In this document: positions 21,194-30,686 of the stretch, piece by piece | Layout of the letters: each line of letters opens with the position of its first letter | How positions within the stretch are numbered: position 1 is the stretch's first letter | Origin: a bacterium | GTDB taxonomy: Bacteria > Patescibacteriota > Saccharimonadia > Saccharimonadales > JAUPVS01 | DNA length: 64,000 nt | Reading direction: 5' to 3' | Assembly: GCA_029780855.1 (NCBI GenBank) | Contig: JAKOXV010000003.1 | Span: forward strand, 162,357 to 226,356 | The notes under the pieces: model-generated | What the model saw: only the letters and a program-made list of their open reading frames with translations | Told to the model about the DNA's origin: nothing | Databases searched by the model: none | Made by a program: the position numbers and the translations under genes

Positions 21194-21463
21194 GTGACTG
21201 GACCAAGGATTCCCATAGAGTCTGGCATGGATGATAGCTGGCGCGAAGAAGCTGCCTGTAATGATATGGGTCCTGAGTATTTCTATGCCGACAAAGACAG
21301 TCCGGAGTATGAATTTGCCAAGATTGTCTGTGGGAGTTGCGCAGTACGAGCTGAATGTCTAGATTTCGCCCTGGTTACCAGGGAGAAGTTCGGGATTTGG
21401 GGCGGCTATGACGAAAGAGAGCGGGGAAGAATGATCCGTCGCCGGCAAGTTTCGGCACTGTAG
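21194..21463 (+). CDS. whiB: WhiB-like (Wbl) Fe-S transcription factor
   Basis: Four Cys in the Wbl spacing (AACNDMG ... KIVCGSCAVRAEC), the G[IV]WGG turn (GIWGG) and a basic C-terminus. GTG start with RBS GAAGGAGGGG. Confidence 0.85.
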   Translation: MTGPRIPIESGMDDSWREEAACNDMGPEYFYADKDSPEYEFAKIVCGSCAVRAECLDFALVTREKFGIWGGYDERERGRMIRRRQVSAL

Positions 21464-21479
21464 CGTATACTGGTATGAG

Positions 21480-24116
21480 ATGAGTGAGGAAAAGCCGAAA
21501 AAACTGGCGATTATTGATGGTAAATCGGTATTTTACCGGGGTTACTATGCTATGCCAAATCTCGCCACCAAAGATGGTACCCCAACTGGTGGTGTGTATG
21601 GCTTTGCAACTATGGCTTTGGAGGTATTAAAGCGGCTCAAGCCCGATTATGTTTGCGTTGCCTGGGATAAGCCAAAAACTAACATCCGTAAACGTCTGGA
21701 ACTGTATCCCGAATATAAGGCCGGCCGGAAACCAGCACCGGCAGATTTTTATGAACAAATTCCGGTTCTCCATGAACTGCTGGATGCGTTCGGGTGGCCA
21801 CTGTATGAACTAGACGACTACGAGGCCGATGATATCATGGGTACATTGGCGGTGCAGGCACGGGAAAAGGGAATCGATACGGCGCTGATAACCAGTGACC
21901 TCGATTTACTCCAGGTCATCAACGGTAACGTCCACGTGTATGCACTCAAAAAAGGCCTGTCCAACATAGAATTGTATTCACCCAAGAGCTTTGAGGCTAA
22001 GTACCATATTGGCGTTGAACAATTTTTGGATATGAAAGCACTGAAAGGCGACAGCTCCGACAATATACCCGGCGTACCAGGTATAGGAGAAAAGGGCGCT
22101 ATCCAGCTGCTGCAGGAGTTCAAGACACTCGATGGCGTATACGATAACCTGGGGCTCGTCAAAGATAGCCTGAGGCGAAAACTAGAGGCCGGGAAAGACT
22201 CTGCGTATTTAAGTAAGAAATTGGCAGCCATATGGACCGATGCCCCAATCAAGCTTGACCTTAAGGCGCTGGATATTAGCCAGTGTGATCCTAACCAAAT
22301 TCACAAAATACTCCAAAAATTGGAGTTCCGTAATCTGGCTCGCCAGCTTCCTGAGGTTATGCAGGTAACAGAGGCTCACGAAAGTAGAAATGTCTACGAG
22401 CACGGCTTTAAAGGGACATACAAAATTATCAACAAAGACAGTGAACTAGCGGGTTTGGAACTGGGAGATACCGTCACGGTGGTTGGTCGCTGTGCTGGCA
22501 AACACGGCGCAGACCCTAAATATCTGGTTCTGAGTGACAAGCGGGATCGAGTGTTCACGCTTAATTTGCAATCCTTGAGTGCGGCGAGGGTGGCCAAAAC
22601 CCTGCAGCCGGTTAAAAAAATGGTTGGGTACGATGTGAAGGCTACGCTCAAGCTCCTTCTAACCCTTGGTATTAGTCTGCCGCGGGTGGAGCATGACGTA
22701 CTGGACGGAGCGTTTTTGATAAATTCCTTGCGCCGACAGCAATCACTCACCGAACTTGCCGAGGCCGATCTTGGCTACGAGGGAACTAGTCTGGATGATC
22801 TGGATGATGAGCAGTTCGTGGAGCGGGCACCAGAAGTTTTAGCCGTCATCCGGTCGCTCCATGAGCAGCAGCGTAAGGCCATGGCAGAGATTCCTAAATT
22901 ACAGCAGCTCGCAGAAACGGTTGAATGGCCGCTCATGCCAGTGCTTGCCCGTATGGAGCACACCGGAATTTTGCTCGACACCAAGTATCTACAAAACTTC
23001 GCGGGTGAAATTGAAGACGTGATTTTACATGTCGAACAACAGATTTATGGGCATGCTGATACGGATTTCAACATAGCGAGCCCCTCCCAGCTCGCCGATG
23101 TCTTGTTCACAAAACTCAATTTACCAACACAGGGCATTAAAAAAGGTAAAACAGGGTATTCTACGGCGGCGACAGAGCTCGATAAACTTAGAGGGCTGCA
23201 CCCGATTATTGATTTAATCACTCAGTACCGCGAAGTTACCAAGCTCAAAAACACCTATGTCGACACGTTACCAAAGCAGGTTGATAAAAACTCTCGCTTA
23301 CACACAACATTCAACCTGACCGTTGCACAAACGGGAAGACTGAGTAGCAATGATCCAAACCTCCAGAATATTCCCATTCGGACTGAGCTGGGCAAGCGGA
23401 TTCGCAAGGCGTTCGTTGCCGATACGGGCAACGTGTTTGTGAGCGCGGATTATAGTCAGTTTGAACTCCGCTTGGCTGCCGCACTCAGTGGCGATAAGGG
23501 CATGTTAGACGCCTTTAACGATGAGGATGGTGACATTCATACCATCACGGCAGCAGCAGTGTACGGGATTAAGCCAGAAGACGTGACAAAAGAGATGCGC
23601 TACTCTGCCAAGGCGGTGAATTTTGGCATTATGTACGGTCAGGGGCCGCACGGACTAGCCCAGGGAACGGGAATGAGTTTTGCTGATGCTAAGCAATTTA
23701 TTGATAAGTATTTTGAAATCCGTCCAAAACTTAAAGACTATATCGAGAGTTTACGAGAGAAGGCTAAAAATGACGGCTATGTAGAGACCTTGCTCGGTCG
23801 CCGCCGGCCTACGCCTGATGTACACTCATCCAATTTTGCGGTGCGCGAAGCCGCTTACCGGGCAGCAATAAATATGCCGCTGCAGGGAACAGCTGCCGAT
23901 ATCATGAAATTGGCTATGATCGCGGTTGATGAAAAGTTACAGGGTACGGGCGCCAAACAGTTACTACAGATCCATGACGCAATCTTAGCTGAATGTCCGG
24001 AAGCGGAGGCCGAAAAAGTGGGCAAAATTCTGAAAACCACTATGGAAGACATCTATAAACTTCCGGTTACTCTAAAAGTAGAGGTTTCTACCGGTAAAGA
24101 CTGGGGCGAGGTATGA
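21480..24116 (+). CDS. polA: DNA polymerase I (5'-nuclease, inactive-looking 3'-5' exo region, family A polymerase)
   Basis: Motif A DYSQFELR, motif B RYSAKAVNFGIMYG, motif C QIHDAIL, N-terminal FEN domain, 878 aa. Confidence 0.95.
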   Translation: MSEEKPKKLAIIDGKSVFYRGYYAMPNLATKDGTPTGGVYGFATMALEVLKRLKPDYVCVAWDKPKTNIRKRLELYPEYKAGRKPAPADFYEQIPVLHELLDAFGWPLYELDDYEADDIMGTLAVQAREKGIDTALITSDLDLLQVINGNVHVYALKKGLSNIELYSPKSFEAKYHIGVEQFLDMKALKGDSSDNIPGVPGIGEKGAIQLLQEFKTLDGVYDNLGLVKDSLRRKLEAGKDSAYLSKKLAAIWTDAPIKLDLKALDISQCDPNQIHKILQKLEFRNLARQLPEVMQVTEAHESRNVYEHGFKGTYKIINKDSELAGLELGDTVTVVGRCAGKHGADPKYLVLSDKRDRVFTLNLQSLSAARVAKTLQPVKKMVGYDVKATLKLLLTLGISLPRVEHDVLDGAFLINSLRRQQSLTELAEADLGYEGTSLDDLDDEQFVERAPEVLAVIRSLHEQQRKAMAEIPKLQQLAETVEWPLMPVLARMEHTGILLDTKYLQNFAGEIEDVILHVEQQIYGHADTDFNIASPSQLADVLFTKLNLPTQGIKKGKTGYSTAATELDKLRGLHPIIDLITQYREVTKLKNTYVDTLPKQVDKNSRLHTTFNLTVAQTGRLSSNDPNLQNIPIRTELGKRIRKAFVADTGNVFVSADYSQFELRLAAALSGDKGMLDAFNDEDGDIHTITAAAVYGIKPEDVTKEMRYSAKAVNFGIMYGQGPHGLAQGTGMSFADAKQFIDKYFEIRPKLKDYIESLREKAKNDGYVETLLGRRRPTPDVHSSNFAVREAAYRAAINMPLQGTAADIMKLAMIAVDEKLQGTGAKQLLQIHDAILAECPEAEAEKVGKILKTTMEDIYKLPVTLKVEVSTGKDWGEV

Positions 24117-24649
24117 GCGAGCATGCGCTAGAAATTGCTACCACGGATTACGCCAACAAACTCCGGGCCTTCATAAATAAGTTCCATTTGCCCAACGTAT
24201 GGTTTGATGAGCCGGATCATATTGCTTTTAAGGCGCGTGATTCATATGGCTACGAACGCCTGTTAAAAGGATTTGTTCCCATGTCTGAAAGTGTAAGTTA
24301 CGTAGAAATGGATGGACGTAGGTTAGCCGCCGCCAAGCTTACTGCACCGCTGGCAATCGGGACTTTCAGTTCGGTTTCGTGGGTAGAAATAATGGAGCCA
24401 CGGCCCGAGAAAGTAGGCAAGGGGTTTGTTGGCCTGGAACATATGGAGTTCTGGCACGCCGACTTCGATAAGGTAAGGAATAACCTAGACGACGCACGGA
24501 TTCCCTATACCCTACAGAGTAATCCTGGCCACGCCTGGATAAATATCGTACTTAACGAAGCTGGACAGGAACTCAAGATAAACGATCGGCCTCTGGAGTT
24601 TATTGTGGCTGAGGAAATTCGTAACGGTGAAGCCCATGTCATCCTTTAA
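24113..24649 (+). CDS. hypothetical protein, possibly VOC (glyoxalase/bleomycin-resistance) fold
   Basis: Two HIAF-like half-motifs (PDHIAFKARD and GLEHMEFWHADFD). Its start overlaps the polA stop (ATGA). Confidence 0.45.
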   Translation: MSEHALEIATTDYANKLRAFINKFHLPNVWFDEPDHIAFKARDSYGYERLLKGFVPMSESVSYVEMDGRRLAAAKLTAPLAIGTFSSVSWVEIMEPRPEKVGKGFVGLEHMEFWHADFDKVRNNLDDARIPYTLQSNPGHAWINIVLNEAGQELKINDRPLEFIVAEEIRNGEAHVIL

Positions 24650-24962
24650 TAAACTAGTTCGCGATAAGATTCCGGAAATTATTTCGGCAAACGGGAGTAA
24701 GCCGGTTACTCGGGTACTAGATGTCGATGAATATGCTGTAGAACTAGAAAGAAAAGACCGCGAAGAACATAGGGAATTTCTTGAAGCTGAAACTCGTGAA
24801 GAAAAACTAGAAGAGCTTGCTGATAGAATGGAGATCTTAAGGGCTCAGGCTGAGTTGCTAGGGTACACCCCCGATGAGCTTGAGGCGGTGCGGGCTGAAA
24901 AGGCCCAGGCGAGGGGAGGGTTTGCGATGAGAATCTACCTTGAGCGTGTAGAGGACGATTGA
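24636..24962 (+). CDS. MazG-like nucleoside triphosphate pyrophosphohydrolase (small all-alpha NTP-PPase)
   Basis: N-terminal NKLVRDKIPEII, an E..E....EELAD metal-binding pattern and C-terminal ARGGFAMRIYLE, typical of the small MazG-like family. Confidence 0.7.
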   Translation: MSSFNKLVRDKIPEIISANGSKPVTRVLDVDEYAVELERKDREEHREFLEAETREEKLEELADRMEILRAQAELLGYTPDELEAVRAEKAQARGGFAMRIYLERVEDD

Positions 24963-24980
24963 GTTTAGTACAATAGAAGC

Positions 24981-25772
24981 ATGACAGAACAGTGGAGGGG
25001 TAAAGGGGAATTTTTAGACGCGCCTATGCTTTATATTCCCTCCGAAAGACTAACTAACATTGAACAACGTCTTGGGCCTTACGGCCCCGGTGTGTTCCAT
25101 ATTCCGGAGGCCTTAACTCCTCAGGCCGCCGATGAGTTGCTGGCTGAAGCGGCAGCCCTAAAATGGCGTGACGCTGGTGAGGACTACTACAACATCCGTG
25201 GAGTTCATGTGATCCAAAACCATGAGGTTTACGCCCTAAAGTTACTCCAGGGCGATGCTGCTTTTGTGGATGCCTTGCCAAAGATGAAGCAGTTGGCGCT
25301 TGAGACTGAAGCGTTCATACAGAGTTTGGGTACTCACTTTGCGTCGCTGAGTACGTGGGTTGCAGATGAAATGTCGTACCACCAGTATTACGATGCCGAG
25401 AAAGGTCTGACTCCTCACAAGGATAACAAGCGCTTTCCTGGCGTGGTGGTTGTGATTACCATCGATGGATCGAGTGACTTTGAAATTGTGAGTAGAGAAC
25501 CAAAATCATACAAGATTGACCCGGTGACCGGAAATGAAATCGTCGATGAGTGGACCTGGTTCAGTACGTACCGCGTACCGGTTAGCCCTGGCAGCATGGC
25601 GATTATGCGTGCACCTGGGCTTTTTGCGGAGGCTCCCGGTGAAGATTGGCGACCAGAACACGCCGTAATGAATGTGGCCAATGCGCACCGTACCGCCTTC
25701 TTGCTACGAGCAAACAGCCGGCCAAACGAACAGAGCGGCGGGTTTGTCTACGAGAATTGGCCGGTAGAGTAA
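24981..25772 (+). CDS. hypothetical protein, paralog A, putative double-stranded beta-helix (2OG/Fe(II) oxygenase-like) fold
   Basis: HKD ... H ... R arrangement (TPHKDNKRF ... PEHAV ... RTAFLLR). Clear paralogy to the next ORF (MRAPGL, ENWP/DNWP). Confidence 0.5.
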   Translation: MTEQWRGKGEFLDAPMLYIPSERLTNIEQRLGPYGPGVFHIPEALTPQAADELLAEAAALKWRDAGEDYYNIRGVHVIQNHEVYALKLLQGDAAFVDALPKMKQLALETEAFIQSLGTHFASLSTWVADEMSYHQYYDAEKGLTPHKDNKRFPGVVVVITIDGSSDFEIVSREPKSYKIDPVTGNEIVDEWTWFSTYRVPVSPGSMAIMRAPGLFAEAPGEDWRPEHAVMNVANAHRTAFLLRANSRPNEQSGGFVYENWPVE

Positions 25773-25816
25773 CTGCTTTTGTTTAAACGGTAAGTTTTTG
25801 GGTATATTGAAGTGTA

Positions 25817-26494
25817 ATGAATGTGCAAATGCATCCAAACATCACTGAGGTTGCCTCACTCGGACCGGAAGGACCGGGTGTTATGTTGTCTCGAGGTCTT
25901 GTGGCGCCAGAACTTACTGCGTCGCTGGCAGATGAGTTAGCGAACAGCCAACGTTGGGAACAGCCCATAGAGTACTTTCAGAAACGTCCCAATGTGCTAC
26001 AAAATTATGAAAAAATTGCGTTAATCCTTTCTCACGGAAACCAAGCGGTGATCGATGCGGAACTGCCTTCTTTGCGTACGCTCGTAAAAACGGTTGGGGC
26101 GTTTGCGCTAGAAATGGCTGATACGTTTCCGGCGTTGTCAGACTATCAAATAAATGATGTCGACTGTCACCGTTACAACGGTGATGGCGGAGTGCTGGGT
26201 ATGCACAAGGATTATCCAAGAAACACAAAGCTTATCGCTATCTACACAGCTGAAGGGTCGGGCATATTTCACTATGAACATGGTGGCCGGGACACCGGGA
26301 TAACGGTTGAGAGCGGGGACGTGCTATTCATGAGGGCTCCCGGACTTTACGATTTGGTAACTGATATTCGGCCGCTGCATGGAGCTACACCTGGCGAAAA
26401 CGGGAGGAAGTGTGTGGTGCTCCGGGAAGACCGCAACCCCGCGGCGACAAGGCCGTACGAGGGTTACTATGATAATTGGCCAAAAAAGGATTAA
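25817..26494 (+). CDS. hypothetical protein, paralog B of the previous ORF, putative DSBH fold
   Basis: GMHKDYPRN ... RPLHGATPG ... RKCVVLR with shared blocks MRAPGLYDL and YYDNWP. Confidence 0.5.
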   Translation: MNVQMHPNITEVASLGPEGPGVMLSRGLVAPELTASLADELANSQRWEQPIEYFQKRPNVLQNYEKIALILSHGNQAVIDAELPSLRTLVKTVGAFALEMADTFPALSDYQINDVDCHRYNGDGGVLGMHKDYPRNTKLIAIYTAEGSGIFHYEHGGRDTGITVESGDVLFMRAPGLYDLVTDIRPLHGATPGENGRKCVVLREDRNPAATRPYEGYYDNWPKKD

Positions 26495-27315
26495 GCCAGT
26501 AGTAATTCGCGATGGGCGGCAACGTCATGAACCCGGAGGTATGCAGCGCCAGCACCTACGGCGATGGCGCCAGCATACAAGTTCCGTTCGCGCATCCAAG
26601 GTTTGTTGTCTTTCAGACTGTCGGCGTTTGGCAAGTACGTGCCGGTTTGCTGATCGCTTCTCAGGAACGATTTATTGGAGTAGCCAATCATAACAGGGGA
26701 GTCCACCCTGCGGCCAAATTTGAGCAACTCCCAGTTTAAACGCATGGTTTTACCAAATCCGATACCAGGGTCTAATATGATTGCTCCGGCAGAAACGCCG
26801 GCTGTAATCATTTGTTCACGTCGTTCCAAAAGTTCATCCACGACTTGTTGAGCAGAATCAATCTTGTGTTCGGCGGAGTGGGCGGCTTGAATATCCTGGC
26901 CGAATGAAGCAGGATGATGACTTACGATTGCTGGAAATTGGAGCTTAGCTACCGTCTCAACCATTTCAGGGTTATTAAAACCGGTTACATCGTTTACGAT
27001 TACCGGGCCCATATTGGCAGCCACCCAACGGACTGTTTCCGGACGGTAGGTATCGAGGGAAATCTGTTCGGTAAAGAGGGCGGCGTATTCGTTGAGTACG
27101 GGGCCTAGACGGCGCTTTTCTTCTTCAAAATCGATCGCTTCCGCTCCTGGTCTCGTGGATTCTGCACCGATATCAATAAATGCTGCACCTTCGTCAAAGA
27201 GCTGCCGGGCCTGCTTGAGTGCATCATAGGGGTCAAAGTACTTGCCGCCATCACTAAAGCTATCTGGTGTAATGTTTAATACGCCGACTAATTTGGTCCC
27301 CTCACTTTGTTCCAT
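26491..27315 (-). CDS. folP: dihydropteroate synthase
   Basis: GVLNITPDSFSDGG, DIGAESTRPG and the pterin-binding fold. Start set at MEQSEG rather than the longer ORF-track extension. Confidence 0.9.
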   Translation of the reverse strand: MEQSEGTKLVGVLNITPDSFSDGGKYFDPYDALKQARQLFDEGAAFIDIGAESTRPGAEAIDFEEEKRRLGPVLNEYAALFTEQISLDTYRPETVRWVAANMGPVIVNDVTGFNNPEMVETVAKLQFPAIVSHHPASFGQDIQAAHSAEHKIDSAQQVVDELLERREQMITAGVSAGAIILDPGIGFGKTMRLNWELLKFGRRVDSPVMIGYSNKSFLRSDQQTGTYLPNADSLKDNKPWMRERNLYAGAIAVGAGAAYLRVHDVAAHRELLLA

Positions 27316-27400: not shown

Positions 27401-27973
27401 ATGAGATACATAACCGCCGGAATCATTGCGTTTTTCATCATCCTTTTTGGGGTGTTGTTGCTGACGCGCGGCGGCAATCAAACGGCAGTTTCTCCAAACG
27501 ACCGAGCTATAAAGCTTTCTAACTATGTCGCCAATCCGGATGCCAAGCTTGTATATATTAAAGACGGACCCATAAACGCTTCTCAAAACCACCGAGCAAT
27601 TCGGATTACGGTTACTCCAAACTTTAAAATCATCGACGTAATCCAGGGATATCAGGGTGCAGTTATTAAAACCGAAACATTTGCCAATTCTAACGATGCC
27701 TTCGGTCAGTTTTTAGCTGCTTTGGATAGGGTAGGCTATACCAAAGAAAACCGCGGCAAAAGCTATAAGGATTCGATTTCGGCTTGTCCTACGGCACTTC
27801 GGTACTACTATCGTATCTATGCATCTGATGAAGAAATTATGAACCTATGGTCGGCCTCCTGTACCACAGGCTCTTTTGCGGGTGATGTCCGCTCTACGCA
27901 GTCGCTATTTCAGGCGCAAATACCAGATTACTTTAAGTTTACCAATGGCGTGAACTTCGCGCTGAGCCAGTAG
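27401..27973 (+). CDS. hypothetical membrane-anchored protein
   Basis: N-terminal TM helix followed by a soluble domain. Confidence 0.5.
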   Translation: MRYITAGIIAFFIILFGVLLLTRGGNQTAVSPNDRAIKLSNYVANPDAKLVYIKDGPINASQNHRAIRITVTPNFKIIDVIQGYQGAVIKTETFANSNDAFGQFLAALDRVGYTKENRGKSYKDSISACPTALRYYYRIYASDEEIMNLWSASCTTGSFAGDVRSTQSLFQAQIPDYFKFTNGVNFALSQ

Positions 27974-27988
27974 TTTAGGTAGAATAGG

Positions 27989-28558
27989 GTGGTGATAAAA
28001 GCGGTACTCTTTGATTACTTTGGGGTGATTAGCTCCGATGAATACTGGCGCTATGTGCGTGAAGATAAAAATATGCAAGCTGGTTTTCATGAGTTGTCGG
28101 ACCAGGTGAACAGGGGAAAGATTAGCTGGCAGGATTTTGAAGCTATTGTGGCTGAAAGAACAGGAACAAGCCGCCGAGCGGTTCATGCCATGTACGAGCA
28201 AGCGAGAATTGACCCACGGGTACTTGCGTATGCCCACGATCTGCATGAAACGTATAAAACAGCCCTGGTGACAAACGCTCACCATGAGTTTCTAGACCCC
28301 ATTGTTTCCAGTGCTCACCTCAGTAACGTTTTTGACCAAATTATCCTGTCCTCACGCATTGGCGCCACAAAACCGCAACCCCGTATTTATGAGGTAACGG
28401 CCCAAACTCTGGGCGTAATGCCAGAGGAATGCATATTCATTGACGACATAGGGCGAAACGTCGATGGTGCTGAAGCGGTGGGGATGCATGGGGTGTTATA
28501 CCAAGATCTTGTAACCTGTAAAAGTGTTGTAAAAAAGATTTTGAAACAGCAGTCCTAG
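27989..28558 (+). CDS. HAD-superfamily hydrolase
   Basis: Motif I variant LFDYFGV and motif III/IV IFIDDIGRNVDGA. Confidence 0.72.
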   Translation: MVIKAVLFDYFGVISSDEYWRYVREDKNMQAGFHELSDQVNRGKISWQDFEAIVAERTGTSRRAVHAMYEQARIDPRVLAYAHDLHETYKTALVTNAHHEFLDPIVSSAHLSNVFDQIILSSRIGATKPQPRIYEVTAQTLGVMPEECIFIDDIGRNVDGAEAVGMHGVLYQDLVTCKSVVKKILKQQS

Positions 28559-28605
28559 AAGCGTATACCGTAAGGTATACATAAACGTAAGCAAGGAAAA
28601 CAAAC

Positions 28606-28779
28606 ATGGCAATCATCGAAAGCGATTTTCCAGTCGATGTAGTCGGTGAATCACTATTGCCTCCACCTGAAACCGAGTGGGATGCAATGAATCGGTACTT
28701 TGACTGGGTGCATAAAACTGGTTTTTGGGCTCTACAAGGTGCGGCAGCCGATGAACAGGCGCCTAACCAATCCGAATAA
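28606..28779 (+). CDS. possible small protein, 57 aa
   Basis: ATG after AAGGAAAA. It is below the ORF-track length cutoff and overlaps the next gene convergently. Confidence 0.25.
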   Translation: MAIIESDFPVDVVGESLLPPPETEWDAMNRYFDWVHKTGFWALQGAAADEQAPNQSE

Positions 28780-29074
28780 CAAGTTTCTTTTCGGTATTGC
28801 AGAGCTTTTTGAGCGCGTAAAGGTGTGGCCGTAGGGTCCCAGCGAGTGCGCTTGAGCGAACTGAAATAATTATTTGTGAATCGTGTAACCCGACGGCAAC
28901 GGTTTCATGCAAGTTTTCTTGAATGTAGTTTTTGATAGTAGTAATTTCTTCCGGTTGTTGATCAAACCTATTTGCCATTATGTCCTGGAGCGAGTGAATC
29001 ATACTGACATTATATCGTCCTATGTTAAATATACGATTGTTAATGCACTCAGTAGCGGGTATAGTAGCCTGCAA
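28763..29074 (-). CDS. hypothetical small protein (possibly DUF721-like)
   Basis: ORF of 103 aa. The family assignment is a weak guess. Confidence 0.4.
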   Translation of the reverse strand: MQATIPATECINNRIFNIGRYNVSMIHSLQDIMANRFDQQPEEITTIKNYIQENLHETVAVGLHDSQIIISVRSSALAGTLRPHLYALKKLCNTEKKLVIRIG

Positions 29075-29094
29075 CAGCGCATTATAAAGAGGGG

Positions 29095-29367
29095 ATGAGT
29101 CGTATGGGTGCAGATGCTAAAACCATCATAAGTGAACCAGTCGTGCTTGAAACGATTGAGCAGGTGGAAGCGTTACATGCAGTTTCAGAGTCCTACTTGG
29201 GGGACTCTCACGTTTTGGTAGGGCACTTGGCGGTGATGCTAGCACTTCCCAAAATGGGCGGTGCTTCACACCTGCCAATGGAGCTGACGTTCGGTGACGC
29301 CATAGTGGCGCGTGCTGTAATGCACGCCCATGAAATGGATGCCGAAGATTTTGGCCTGCTAGGTTGA
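29095..29367 (+). CDS. hypothetical small protein, 90 aa
   Basis: ORF immediately upstream of mutM. Confidence 0.4.
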   Translation: MSRMGADAKTIISEPVVLETIEQVEALHAVSESYLGDSHVLVGHLAVMLALPKMGGASHLPMELTFGDAIVARAVMHAHEMDAEDFGLLG

Positions 29368-29379
29368 TACAATAGGTGT

Positions 29380-30258
29380 ATGCCAGAGTTACCAGAGGTT
29401 GAAACGGTCCGGCGAGGTTTGAGTGATCTTTTGCCCGGAAAGACAGTTCTTGCAGTTTCACACGACACACCCAAAAGTTTTCCTAACGCACCAGCAGATG
29501 TGAAAGAATTCCTGATCGGTGCAAAAGTCGAAGCGGTGAAACGGCGGGCAAAGGTGCTCATTATTGAGCTCGATACTAAGTACAGTTTAATCATACATTT
29601 AAAGATGACCGGACAGCTCGTATTTAGGTCACGTGATGATAAAAAACGCTTTGGTGCAGGGCATCCTAATCGCAGTTTAATCGGCGATTTACCAGATAAA
29701 AGCACCCGAGTAATTTTTGAGTTCAACGAAGCATTTTTGTACTTTAACGATCAGCGCAAATTTGGATGGGTTCGGCTCGTCCCGACTGCTGAAATTCCTA
29801 ACATCGATTTCTTTAGAAAGGTTGGCCCTGAGCCTTTGGCGGCAGATTTTAAGCCACAAGATTTCAAAAATAGGATACGCAGACGACCTAATAGCACTAT
29901 AAAAGCGGTACTGTTGGACCAAACGGTCATTGCCGGTGTCGGTAACATTTACGCCGATGAAAGTCTGTGGACGGCACGCATTCATCCGGAAACAAAAGTT
30001 CGGGATATATCACCCATAAAACTAACGAAGCTGTATCATGGATTACGTGACGTCATGTTCCTGAGCATCGAGAAGGGTGGAAGTAGCGATAAGAATTATG
30101 TTGATGTTGCAGGCCGCCAGGGTAGCTACCTGCAGTTTGCCAATGTGTTCAGGCGCGAAGGAAAAGCATGTCCACGGTGCGGACATGAAATAATCAAGAT
30201 AAGGGTAGCAGGTCGCGGCACGCACCTGTGCCCACACTGCCAAAGGAAAGTATCGTGA
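29380..30258 (+). CDS. mutM: formamidopyrimidine-DNA glycosylase
   Basis: N-terminal [14 protein letters not shown] and C-terminal zinc finger CPRCGHEI...CPHCQ. Confidence 0.93.
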
Positions 30259-30686
30259 AGATTAAAATCGTCAACAAATCAAAGCATCCGCTACCCAAAC
30301 ATGAATCAGCCCACGCTGCAGCAGTTGATCTGCGCGCAAACTTGGAGGAGCCGATTACCCTCCAGCCGTTAGATCGCGAAATAGTTCCAACAGGTTTGTA
30401 CATCGCGCTGCCCGTAGGCTATGAAGCTCAAATACGCCCACGAAGCGGTCTGGCAATTAAGCATGGCATCACCATGATAAACGCACCTGGTACCGTCGAT
30501 GCTGATTATCGCGGCGAATACTGTGTACTTATGGTGAATTTAGGTAAGGAACCGTACACCATTCACGACGGAGACCGAATTGCTCAGATGGTTATTGCCC
30601 GACATGAAACGGTTGAGTGGGAAGAGGTCGCCGCTCTTGATCAGACCGACCGTGCTGCTAAACGTTTTGGAAGCACCGGTCGGTAA
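30255..30686 (+). CDS. dut: dUTP diphosphatase
   Basis: dUTPase motifs [16 protein letters not shown] and GSTGR. GTG start overlaps the mutM stop. Confidence 0.9.

What the first reader, a model, noticed from the sequence alone, without database searches (positions are those of the whole stretch)
24113..26494. Four-gene cluster coupled to polA: VOC-fold protein, MazG-like NTP pyrophosphohydrolase, and two tandem paralogous putative 2OG/Fe(II)-oxygenase-fold proteins
The first gene overlaps the polA stop (ATGA) and the second overlaps the first, indicating co-translation with polA. The MazG-like protein has the hallmark KLVRDKIPEII N-terminus, an EE..E metal-binding pattern and an ERGGF-like C-terminus. 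The last two ORFs are clear paralogs with shared blocks MRAPGL and [EY]NWP. Each shows an HKD...H...R spacing reminiscent of the HxD...H...RxS facial triad of double-stranded beta-helix oxygenases. Small-molecule enzymes sitting directly behind the replicative repair polymerase could form a nucleotide-pool sanitising or base-modification module. The function is unknown and this arrangement is not one I recognise.
Basis: inference. Interest (0 to 1): 0.6.

Follow-up and report, generated by a model that had tools for sequence, protein, structure and literature searches.

The report
Divergent AlkB-like oxygenase pair behind polA
Behind the DNA polymerase I gene of a Saccharibacteria (TM7) genome sit a YecM-type protein, a MazG-type nucleotide pyrophosphatase and two old paralogues of an unannotated but recognisably AlkB-like iron/2-oxoglutarate oxygenase. 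They belong to a loosely conserved neighbourhood of DNA- and nucleotide-cleaning genes, not a new kind of system.

Summary
All four ORFs are real, at the stated coordinates, with the stated overlaps and motifs.

- **Gene 1** passes Pfam's YecM threshold (VOC fold).
- **Gene 2** belongs to a family of over 900 proteins that sources name NTP or PRA-ATP pyrophosphohydrolase. It carries the EExxE...EExxD acidic set of MazG.
- **The two paralogues** (32% identity, E 5e-20) match no Pfam or NCBIfam model themselves. A profile of them finds 788 relatives. Of 62 proteins scanned (60 of these relatives plus the two paralogues), 22 hit PF13532, the AlkB-like family.
- **Structure:** an AlphaFold model (pLDDT 80) matches ALKBH6, ALKBH2, ALKBH3 and PHD2 (E about 4e-8).
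- **Motifs:** Y, HxD, H and RxxxxxR, the AlkB signature, are invariant or nearly so.

The idea of a four-gene module coupled to polA is only partly right. Start/stop overlaps are common in this genome. In other Saccharibacteria only the oxygenase recurs between polA and a convergent folP. YecM, the MazG-like gene, Ham1, NADAR and dUTPase shuffle around it.

The most likely role is oxidative dealkylation of bases, in nucleic acid or in scavenged nucleotides, alongside nucleotide-pool cleaning. The substrate is unknown. I rate it a new member of a known kind, of modest interest.

The parts
21480..24116 (+). polA (DNA polymerase I, 878 aa), the upstream anchor gene
   Evidence: ORF. Pfam 5_3_exonuc_N, 5_3_exonuc and DNA_pol_A on the identical gene in L002. 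55-63% identical to polA of Saccharibacteria relatives.
24113..24649 (+). YecM-family (VOC-fold) protein, 178 aa. Its start overlaps the polA stop (ATGA).
   Evidence: Pfam PF06185 YecM, E 2.1e-8, 34.6 bits against cutoff 25, residues 11-114. NCBIfam PRK11700 'VOC family protein' gives weak hits. Overlap read. Orthologues at 48-54% identity in L006/L018 and L015.
24636..24962 (+). All-alpha (MazG/HisE-type) NTP pyrophosphohydrolase-like protein, 108 aa from ATG 24636. A public gene call uses GTG 24627, giving 111 aa.
   Evidence: 929 homologues, named by sources as NTP or phosphoribosyl-ATP pyrophosphohydrolase or MazG superfamily. Invariant K6 L7 R9 D10 I12 P13, E43 E44 E47, E60 D63, G94 F96. 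Profile hit to the PRA-PH domain 7bgm at E 6e-3, with weaker YpjD, HisE and MazZ hits. AF2 model is four helices, pLDDT 96.
24762..24824 (+). Acidic metal-binding motif of the MazG-like protein: E43 E44 xx E47 ... E59 E60 xx D63
   Evidence: Positions, conservation. The pattern matches the six conserved acidic residues of E. coli MazG (E171 E172 E175 E192 E193 D196) described in PMC10014863.
24981..25772 (+). Paralogue A: divergent AlkB-like Fe(II)/2OG dioxygenase, 263 aa, with a beta-hairpin insertion at about residues 165-201
   Evidence: AF2 model pLDDT 80, pTM 0.82. Foldseek PDB: ALKBH6, ALKBH2, PHD2, ALKBH3 and ALKBH5 at E 4e-8 to 1e-7. The family profile finds 788 relatives. 22 of 62 proteins scanned (60 relatives plus the two paralogues) hit PF13532. 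Profile against PDB sequences: ALKBH8, Ofd2 and ALKBH2 at E 1e-3 to 1e-2.
25380..25424 (+). Paralogue A: H134-x-Y136 (2OG-binding Tyr) and the H146-K-D148 iron ligands
   Evidence: Positions. Y136, H146 and D148 are 44/44 in the family. hhalign places them on AlkB's NRY...HQD segment.
25650..25709 (+). Paralogue A: distal His (H227 in RPEH) and the AlkB-type R237(x)5R243 motif
   Evidence: Positions. H227 44/44, R237 40/44, R243 44/44. RxxxxxR is the AlkB-family signature (PMC544882).
25817..26494 (+). Paralogue B: second AlkB-like dioxygenase, 225 aa, with no hairpin insertion. It belongs to a small separate clade.
   Evidence: 32% identity, E 5e-20 to paralogue A. Motifs H118-R-Y120, H130-K-D132, H188 and R197(x)5R203. 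It clusters with P0004 and P0005 away from the A clade. The tandem A>B order is also seen in L001 and L020-L022.
26491..27315 (-). folP (dihydropteroate synthase), convergent, with its stop overlapping the stop of paralogue B by 4 nt
   Evidence: TIGR01496 DHPS, 209.6 bits against cutoff 162.6. The oxygenase/<folP arrangement recurs in L001, L003, L004 and L006/L018, and in L005 with one gene between.
27989..30686 (+). Downstream frame of the neighbourhood: HAD-IA phosphatase (27989-28558), Fpg (29380-30258) and dUTPase (30255-30686)
   Evidence: Pfam annotation of L002 and NCBIfam. The same frame of genes is seen in L003, L004, L006/L018 and L015.

Best explanation
The region holds four genuine genes in a tightly packed co-directional array behind polA, in a Candidatus Saccharibacteria genome.

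1. A YecM-family VOC-fold protein whose chemistry is unknown.
2. A small all-alpha NTP pyrophosphohydrolase of the MazG/HisE superfamily. By inference it cleaves non-canonical (d)NTPs to (d)NMP plus PPi, using Mg2+ held by its EExxE...EExxD residues.
3. and 4. Two anciently diverged paralogues of an unannotated, divergent subfamily of AlkB-like Fe(II)/2-oxoglutarate dioxygenases.

Shown: the oxygenases have a double-stranded beta-helix fold with a complete, conserved catalytic set. This comprises the HxD + H iron triad, the Tyr and first Arg that hold 2OG, and the second Arg of RxxxxxR that is specific to AlkB homologues.

Inferred: each binds Fe(II), 2OG and O2, decarboxylates 2OG to succinate, and hydroxylates an alkyl (methyl) group on a base. 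The group then leaves as an aldehyde and the base is restored. The substrate may be DNA or RNA, or scavenged nucleotides or nucleosides.

The genes are not a fixed operon. They belong to a variable stretch between polA and fpg/dut/holA that different Saccharibacteria fill with different DNA- and nucleotide-hygiene genes: MazG-like, Ham1 ITPase, dUTPase, NADAR, YecM, a HAD phosphatase and one or two of these oxygenases. Most also have a convergent DHPS gene there.
For: **Genes and overlaps:**

**YecM:**

**MazG-like:**, and for the four-helix model. The acidic motif matches that of E. coli MazG.

**Oxygenase fold:** model. Foldseek gives ALKBH6, ALKBH2, ALKBH3, ALKBH5 and PHD2 at E 4e-8 to 4e-7.

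**Sequence bridge to AlkB:**
- 788 relatives.
- 22 of 62 proteins scanned (60 relatives plus the two paralogues) hit PF13532, against 2 for PF03171.
- The close relative P0144 carries PF13532 and the PGAP name 'alpha-ketoglutarate-dependent dioxygenase AlkB'.
- Profile hits to ALKBH8, Ofd2, ALKBH2, Tpa1 and ALKBH6.
- hhalign to E. coli AlkB aligns Y136/H146/D148 with the NRY...HQD segment.

**Motif conservation:**. Definition of the AlkB signature: PMC544882.

**Neighbourhood:**
- The oxygenase lies downstream of polA in L003, L004, L006/L018, L007, L012 and L015.
- Ham1 lies directly upstream of it in L003 and L012.
- NADAR lies directly upstream in L006/L018, and two genes upstream in L020.
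- RecG is divergent in L005.
- YecM is followed by the MazG-like gene or dUTPase in L015 and L018.

**Background:** Saccharibacteria depend on external nucleosides and carry many repair and sanitising enzymes (PMC6031116).
Against: - No activity or substrate has been tested.
- The window proteins themselves hit no Pfam, NCBIfam, PHROG or PADLOC model, even at E <= 1, so they lie at the edge of the AlkB family.
- The family is uniformly acidic: median pI 5.2, 43 of 44 below 7.5, net charge -14 and -9. This is unlike the basic Fpg of the same genome and is a weak argument against a polynucleotide substrate.
- Foldseek scores PHD2-type prolyl hydroxylases about as well as the ALKBH proteins.
- Relatives also occur in unrelated contexts (L008, L011, L016).
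- Gene order is generally conserved within this phylum, so the neighbourhood evidence is weak.
- Foldseek support for the MazG fold is not significant (best E 0.85).
- The region equivalent to a nucleotide-recognition lid (residues 60-80) is modelled with low confidence.
Confidence: 0.55

Rival explanations
1. The oxygenases act on free nucleotides or nucleosides, not on polymers. In an organism that must scavenge nucleotides from its host or from degraded RNA and DNA, they would strip methyl or other alkyl groups from modified bases so these can be reused. They would work alongside the pyrophosphatases (MazG-like, Ham1, dUTPase) and a HAD nucleotidase.
For: The genes that flank the oxygenase closely and in the same direction are NTP pyrophosphatases in several genomes: MazG-like at an 18-nt gap in the window and Ham1 overlapping or adjacent in L003 and L012. 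Nearby genes include NADAR, a weak Nuc_deoxyrib_tr-like protein, dUTPase and HAD. The family is acidic. Saccharibacteria depend on external nucleosides (PMC6031116).
Against: I know of no AlkB-family enzyme whose physiological substrate is a free nucleotide (own knowledge). Nucleotides are anionic, so an acidic protein is no better suited to them. The neighbourhood evidence is confounded by conserved gene order. Nothing was tested.
Confidence: 0.15
2. They are protein-modifying 2OG oxygenases (prolyl or lysyl hydroxylase, or protein demethylase, as proposed for PHD, Tpa1/Ofd1, ALKBH4 or Ofd2). Their position near polA is incidental.
For: PHD2 and a Trichoplax prolyl hydroxylase score like the ALKBH proteins in Foldseek. 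Tpa1 and Ofd2 are among the profile hits. The family has an acidic pI. Several relatives lie in contexts unrelated to DNA.
Against: The second Arg of RxxxxxR, stated to be AlkB-specific, is invariant. Relatives hit PF13532 in 22 of 62 proteins scanned and no prolyl-4-hydroxylase family at E <= 0.01. PHD2 sequence-profile hits are about 100-fold weaker than the ALKBH hits.
Confidence: 0.12
3. They act in pterin or folate metabolism together with the neighbouring dihydropteroate synthase.
For: The oxygenase and a convergent folP are adjacent in the window, L001, L003, L004 and L006/L018, and one gene apart in L005. One distant family member, P0274, is a fusion of a FolB (dihydroneopterin aldolase) domain to the oxygenase domain (Pfam FolB 1.6e-28; sequence).
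Against: Convergent genes cannot share a transcript. L015, L016, L008 and L011 have the oxygenase without folP nearby. The fusion is a single case on a 1.2-kb contig, found among the 60 relatives scanned, and it sits at the weak end of the listed hits (E 1.1e-13). No FolB was found in the window or the loci. I know of no 2OG oxygenase step in folate synthesis (own knowledge).
Confidence: 0.08
4. There is no shared function. The four genes are unrelated housekeeping or accessory genes packed together by genome compaction, and the region between polA and fpg is simply a tolerated insertion site.
For: Overlaps and tiny gaps are the rule in this window: 28 of 44 same-strand pairs overlap or are 30 nt or less apart, and coding density is about 0.9. 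Gene content and order between polA and fpg vary between relatives and include an aldo-keto reductase, SAICAR synthase, hydrolases and membrane proteins. Promoter and terminator scans are at background.
Against: Three of the four house-cleaning NTPase superfamilies listed in PMC10014863 recur in this same interval, together with NADAR, Fpg, polA, RecG and the AlkB-like gene. That is more thematic than random filling would suggest. The enrichment was not tested statistically.
Confidence: 0.1

Closest known systems
AlkB / ALKBH family of Fe(II)/2-oxoglutarate dioxygenases (Pfam PF13532 2OG-FeII_Oxy_2; E. coli AlkB, human ALKBH2, 3, 5, 6 and 8, S. pombe Ofd2)
   Same: Double-stranded beta-helix fold (Foldseek E about 4e-8, TM 0.5-0.63). 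HxD...H iron triad, an upstream (N/H/Q)xY, and the family-specific RxxxxxR, all conserved. Relatives hit PF13532, and PGAP names one of them AlkB.
   Different: The window proteins fall below every curated model. The subfamily has its own invariant features: R210 in LLRAPG, W62, a QNH..ALKL block and a C-terminal Y-x-NW(P). It is acidic overall. Paralogue A carries a roughly 35-residue beta-hairpin insertion. The substrate is unknown, and the lid region is poorly modelled.
HIF/PHD-type prolyl hydroxylases (PHD2/EGLN1; Tpa1/Ofd1)
   Same: Comparable structural similarity (E 1e-7, TM about 0.5) and the same HxD...H...R core.
   Different: Sequence-profile hits are much weaker (E 0.2 or higher, against 1e-3 for the ALKBH proteins). 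No prolyl-hydroxylase Pfam family appears among the relatives. The extra AlkB-type Arg is present.
All-alpha NTP pyrophosphohydrolases (MazG, HisE/PRA-PH, B. subtilis YpjD, phage MazZ)
   Same: A small helical protein with the EExxE...EExxD acidic set. The best PDB profile and fold hits all come from this superfamily. Sources name the homologues NTP or PRA-ATP pyrophosphohydrolase.
   Different: No Pfam or NCBIfam model matches and the PDB hits are weak (E 6e-3 at best). It has a distinctive invariant N-terminal KLVRDxIP motif and a C-terminal RGGF. No characterised member was found here.
E. coli YecM (PF06185; PDB 1k4n), a VOC-fold protein of unknown function
   Same: Pfam hit above the curated cutoff, covering residues 11-114.
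   Different: Only the N-terminal two thirds match. The direct sequence hit to 1k4n is insignificant (E 0.99). In Saccharibacteria it is repeatedly followed by an NTP pyrophosphatase gene: MazG-like in the window and L015, dUTPase in L018.

Membership tests
AlkB-like Fe(II)/2OG dioxygenases (PF13532) | HxD ... H iron-binding facial triad | tested here: met
   Paralogue A: H146, D148, H227. Paralogue B: H130, D132, H188. 44/44 in family alignment A4. Aligned to the HQD of AlkB and to the HxD of ALKBH8, Ofd2 and ALKBH2.
AlkB-like Fe(II)/2OG dioxygenases (PF13532) | RxxxxxR motif (the first Arg binds 2OG; the second Arg is AlkB-specific, PMC544882) | tested here: met
   RTAFLLR at 237-243 in A and RKCVVLR at 197-203 in B. 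R237 40/44 and R243 44/44. Definition. The family consensus RisvtfR aligns to RTSFTFR of ALKBH8.
AlkB-like Fe(II)/2OG dioxygenases (PF13532) | Upstream NxY-type 2OG-binding Tyr | tested here: met
   H134-Q-Y136 in A and H118-R-Y120 in B. Y is 44/44, and the first position is H, Q or N.
AlkB-like Fe(II)/2OG dioxygenases (PF13532) | Double-stranded beta-helix fold resembling solved ALKBH structures | tested here: met
   Model pLDDT 80, pTM 0.82. ALKBH6 and ALKBH2 are the top hits at E 4.4e-8, TMt 0.59-0.63. PHD2 scores similarly, so the fold alone does not discriminate.
AlkB-like Fe(II)/2OG dioxygenases (PF13532) | Match to the curated family model above threshold | tested here: not met
   No Pfam or NCBIfam hit for either window protein at E <= 1. 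Membership is only transitive: 22 of 62 proteins scanned (60 profile relatives plus the two paralogues) hit PF13532 at E <= 0.01, and the close relative P0144 has a precomputed PF13532 hit.
AlkB-like Fe(II)/2OG dioxygenases (PF13532) | Nucleotide-recognition lid and oxidative dealkylation of nucleic-acid bases | not testable with these tools
   The candidate lid region (residues 60-80) has pLDDT about 50. No coordinates or docking were available. The acidic pI is a weak argument against.
All-alpha NTP pyrophosphohydrolase superfamily (MazG/HisE) | Conserved acidic metal-binding residues EExx(E/D) ... E(E)xxD | tested here: met
   E43, E44, E47, E60 and D63 are invariant, and E59 is at least 90% conserved, in 35 homologues. 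The same pattern is described for E. coli MazG.
All-alpha NTP pyrophosphohydrolase superfamily (MazG/HisE) | Helical-bundle fold or sequence similarity to solved members | tested here: inconclusive
   Four-helix model, pLDDT 96. The top Foldseek hits are HisE, MazG, HisN2 and YpjD, but E is 0.85 or higher. The sequence profile gives PRA-PH domain 7bgm at E 6.3e-3 and others at E 0.16 or higher. No Pfam hit.
YecM family (PF06185, VOC clan) | Match to the curated family model above threshold | tested here: met
   34.6 bits against gathering cutoff 25, E 2.1e-8, residues 11-114 on profile positions 10-109 of 180.
Prolyl-4-hydroxylase / PHD-type 2OG oxygenases | Sequence-family membership (P4H/PHD models or significant profile hits) | tested here: not met
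   No such Pfam family among the 62 proteins scanned. PHD2 profile hits have E 0.2 or higher, with zero stretches passing on their own. Only structural similarity is seen.

The most novel reading that the evidence does not exclude
The two AlkB-like enzymes, with the YecM protein and the MazG-like, Ham1 and dUTPase pyrophosphatases, form a repair or recycling system for modified nucleotides. It would be specific to nucleotide-scavenging episymbionts: bases methylated in the host's RNA or DNA are oxidatively demethylated at the level of free nucleotides or nucleosides before reuse. This would be a substrate class not established for any AlkB homologue. The A and B paralogues would cover different lesions.
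Probability: 0.12. Interest if true: 0.65.

Novelty: new member of a known kind. Interest (0 to 1): 0.3.

Why it matters
Saccharibacteria and other CPR bacteria cannot make nucleotides and live on scavenged ones. How they keep damaged or modified bases out of their DNA is therefore a real question.

This work shows that an unannotated gene family, with at least 788 representatives and labelled 'hypothetical' in most records, is a catalytically intact AlkB-like dioxygenase. In Saccharibacteria it sits among polA, fpg, dUTPase, ITPase, MazG-like and NADAR genes. That gives annotators a name for it and gives experimenters a short list of substrates to try.

It is not a new type of system. The value is an annotation gain and a testable hypothesis about nucleotide hygiene in reduced genomes.

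Tried and rejected
- **Direct family scans of the paralogues** (Pfam, NCBIfam, PHROGs, PADLOC) and phmmer against PDB sequences gave nothing meaningful.
- **The word-indexed homologue search** found only 2-3 relatives per paralogue. The exhaustive profile search was needed.
With A1 it gave 5 genomes, 3 metagenome contigs and no viral contig.
- **Promoter and terminator scans** were at shuffle level. Rfam and tRNA scans of the window were empty.
- **tblastn with the FolB domain of P0274** found no FolB in the window or the loci. Together with the loci that lack folP, this led me to rank the folate idea low.
- **A phage or defence origin was rejected:** no PHROG or PADLOC hits and no viral relatives.
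- **Literature searches** for Saccharibacteria with AlkB or 2OG dioxygenase, and for YecM, returned nothing relevant.
- **Recent tandem duplication was rejected.** The paralogues fall in separate clades, and the A>B pair recurs in other genomes.

Full report
**Observation**

The four ORFs exist as described: 24113-24649 (178 aa), 24636-24962 (108 aa from the ATG that matches the N-termini of homologues), 24981-25772 (263 aa) and 25817-26494 (225 aa), all on the + strand.
- The polA stop (TGA, 24114-24116) overlaps the ATG at 24113.
- Gene 2 overlaps the end of gene 1 by 14 nt.
- The quoted motifs are present.
- The two last proteins are paralogues: 32% identity, E 5e-20.
- The C-terminal shared block is Y[ED]NWP, not [EY]NWP.

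**Source organism**

The closest loci in the genome collection are Candidatus Saccharibacteria MAGs, with polA 55-63% identical. The same sequence is on public contigs. The window is compact: coding density is about 0.9, 10 of 44 same-strand neighbour pairs overlap, and 18 more are 30 nt or less apart. It contains no tRNA or Rfam hit.

**Gene 1**

Gene 1 passes Pfam's YecM model (PF06185, 34.6 bits against cutoff 25), and NCBIfam's PRK11700 'VOC family protein' models hit weakly. The function of YecM is unknown.

**Gene 2**

Gene 2 hits no curated model, but several lines place it in the MazG/HisE superfamily.
- It has 929 homologues at E <= 1e-3. Those that carry names are called nucleoside triphosphate pyrophosphohydrolase, phosphoribosyl-ATP pyrophosphohydrolase or MazG-superfamily house-cleaning NTPase.
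- In 35 aligned homologues K6, L7, R9, D10, I12, P13, E43, E44, E47, E60, D63, G94 and F96 are invariant.
- The acidic set E43 E44 xx E47 ... E59 E60 xx D63 reproduces the six conserved acidic residues of E. coli MazG (E171, E172, E175, E192, E193, D196) described in PMC10014863.
- A profile of the family hits the PRA-PH domain of HisN2 (E 6e-3), then YpjD, a Bacillus MazG, HisE and MazZ at weaker E-values.
- A confident four-helix model (pLDDT 96) retrieves HisE, MazG and HisN2 first, but not significantly (E 0.85 or higher).

Membership of the all-alpha NTP-PPase superfamily is therefore well supported by motif and naming, and only weakly by statistics.

**The paralogues**

Direct scans fail, and the word-indexed search finds only two or three relatives each. 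A profile of the five sequences, searched exhaustively, finds 788 proteins at E <= 1e-3 and 297 at E <= 1e-10.

*Link to the AlkB family by sequence*
- Of 62 proteins scanned (60 of these relatives plus the two paralogues), 22 hit PF13532 (2OG-FeII_Oxy_2, the AlkB-like family) and 2 hit PF03171.
- One close relative from a Saccharimonadales MAG carries a PF13532 hit and the PGAP name 'alpha-ketoglutarate-dependent dioxygenase AlkB'.
- The family profile hits ALKBH8, Ofd2, ALKBH2, Tpa1 and ALKBH6 among PDB sequences (E 1e-3 to 2e-2). The HxD and RxSxxxR segments are in register.

*Structure*

The AlphaFold model of paralogue A (pLDDT 80, pTM 0.82, from a 5-sequence alignment) is a double-stranded beta-helix. 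Foldseek against the PDB gives ALKBH6, ALKBH2, ALKBH3, ALKBH5 and PHD2 at E 4e-8 to 4e-7.

*Conservation in 44 family members*

| Residue (paralogue A numbering) | Conserved in |
|---|---|
| Y136, H146, D148, R210, H227, R243 | 44/44 |
| R237 | 40/44 |
| S239 | 37/44 |

PMC544882 states that the AlkB homologues share just HxD, H and RxxxxxR, and that the last Arg is the AlkB-specific one. Both window proteins have RxxxxxR (RTAFLLR and RKCVVLR).

*Features specific to the subfamily*
- An invariant Arg in LLRAPG.
- W62, a QNH..ALKL block and a C-terminal Y-x-NW(P).
- An acidic overall charge: median pI 5.2, with 43 of 44 below 7.5.
- In the clade of paralogue A, a long beta-hairpin insertion.

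*Age of the duplication*

Paralogue B belongs to a small separate clade with P0004 and P0005. The tandem A>B order recurs in L001 and in L020-L022. The duplication is old, not a recent tandem copy.

**Neighbourhood**

A frame of polA ... HAD, fpg, (dut), holA is shared by the relatives. The stretch after polA varies.

| Locus | Gene order |
|---|---|
| Window | polA > YecM > MazG-like > A > B, then convergent folP |
| L004, L007 | polA > oxygenase directly |
| L003 | polA > MazG-like > ... > Ham1 ITPase > oxygenase, then convergent folP |
| L012 | polA > membrane protein > hydrolase > Ham1 > oxygenase |
| L006/L018 | polA > NADAR > oxygenase, convergent folP, then YecM > dUTPase > HAD > fpg |
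| L015 | polA > aldo-keto reductase > SAICAR synthase > ... > YecM > YecM > MazG-like > ..., a divergent methyltransferase, then oxygenase > HAD > fpg; no folP |
| L005 | divergent RecG, then oxygenase > hypothetical, then convergent folP |
| L020 | NADAR > weak deoxyribosyltransferase-like > A > B |
| L016, L008, L011 | oxygenase without polA or folP |

Three conclusions follow.
- The four-gene cluster is not conserved as a unit.
- The oxygenase's place downstream of polA and next to a convergent DHPS gene is recurrent within Saccharibacteria.
- The interval is repeatedly filled with house-cleaning enzymes. Three of the four NTPase superfamilies listed in PMC10014863 appear there. Starr et al. 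noted that Saccharibacteria depend on external nucleosides and have many repair and sanitising enzymes (PMC6031116).

Because gene order is conserved in this phylum and genes are packed tightly, this is suggestive evidence, not proof, of a functional link. Promoter and terminator scans gave no information.

**Mechanism**

*Shown:* fold, catalytic residues, family links and gene arrangement.

*Inferred:*
- Each oxygenase binds Fe(II) through H146, D148 and H227, and holds 2OG with Y136 and R237.
- It uses O2 to hydroxylate an alkyl group on a base, which then leaves as an aldehyde.
- The MazG-like protein hydrolyses non-canonical (d)NTPs.
- YecM's chemistry is unknown, but it is repeatedly followed by an NTPase gene.

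The substrate could be DNA or RNA, which is the default for the family, or free nucleotides or nucleosides. The second option fits the flanking pyrophosphatases and the acidic charge, but has no precedent that I know of.

**Rivals**
- **Protein hydroxylase.** PHD2-like fold hits support it, but the AlkB-type Arg and the PF13532 hits argue against it.
- **Folate or pterin role.** The adjacency to folP and a single FolB-oxygenase fusion, P0274, support it. However, the genes are convergent, several loci lack folP, and no FolB was found.
- **No shared function.** This remains possible.

**Novelty and verdict**

No paper in the library describes this subfamily. It lies below the thresholds of curated models, yet it has every sequence hallmark of AlkB homologues, and one relative is already named AlkB by PGAP. 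I class it as a new member of a known kind. Interest is modest at 0.3: a useful annotation and a testable hypothesis about nucleotide hygiene in CPR bacteria, but not a surprise to a specialist.

**Limits**
- Model coordinates could not be inspected.
- The structure rests on a 5-sequence alignment.
- Neighbourhood enrichment was not tested statistically.

Noticed in passing
P0274 (319 aa, Logan contig of 1212 nt): A distant family member is a fusion of an N-terminal FolB (dihydroneopterin aldolase, Pfam E 1.6e-28) domain to the AlkB-like oxygenase domain. Together with the recurrent convergent folP neighbour, this hints at a pterin link, but it is a single case.
   Followed up: partly
window 24113-24962; L015:4463-5831; L018:8482-9440: The YecM-family gene is followed, with overlapping stop and start, by an NTP pyrophosphatase gene in three genomes: MazG-like in the window and L015 (where YecM is itself tandemly duplicated), and dUTPase in L018. 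This may be a clue to the unknown function of YecM.
   Followed up: partly
L003:7321-7971, L012:6770-7339, L006:7422-7883 (= L018:6482-6943), L020:3-458: In relatives, the gene next to the oxygenase on its upstream side is a Ham1-family ITPase (L003, L012) or a NADAR-domain protein (L006/L018), instead of the MazG-like gene. In L020 the NADAR gene lies two genes upstream.
   Followed up: yes
window 26491-27315 (-): A bona fide dihydropteroate synthase (TIGR01496 above cutoff) is convergent with paralogue B, with a 4-nt stop/stop overlap. No FolB was detected in the window or in related loci by tblastn. Whether the rest of the folate pathway exists in this reduced genome was not checked.
   Followed up: partly
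window 21194-21463 (+): A WhiB-family gene (Pfam Whib on the identical L002 gene) lies 16 nt upstream of polA, in the same co-directional run as a nucleotide-kinase-like gene and a polyprenyl synthase.
   Followed up: no
window 27401-27973 (+); L004:11961-12530; L015:7802-8383: A conserved protein of about 190 aa with an N-terminal hydrophobic segment and no Pfam or NCBIfam match recurs next to the HAD phosphatase gene in several Saccharibacteria.
   Followed up: partly
window 25470-25585 (paralogue A, residues about 165-201): A confidently modelled beta-hairpin insertion inside the double-stranded beta-helix is present only in one sub-clade (paralogue A, P0002, P0136, P0160, and the L003, L004 and L012 proteins). 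It is absent from paralogue B and most relatives.
   Followed up: partly
window 1-64000: There is no tRNA gene (ARAGORN) and no Rfam family at gathering threshold anywhere in the 64 kb.
   Followed up: yes
L003:6452-6856: The MazG-like orthologue directly after polA in L003 carries a C-terminal extension of about 30 residues (134 aa from the longest ORF start) that is not seen in the window protein.
   Followed up: no
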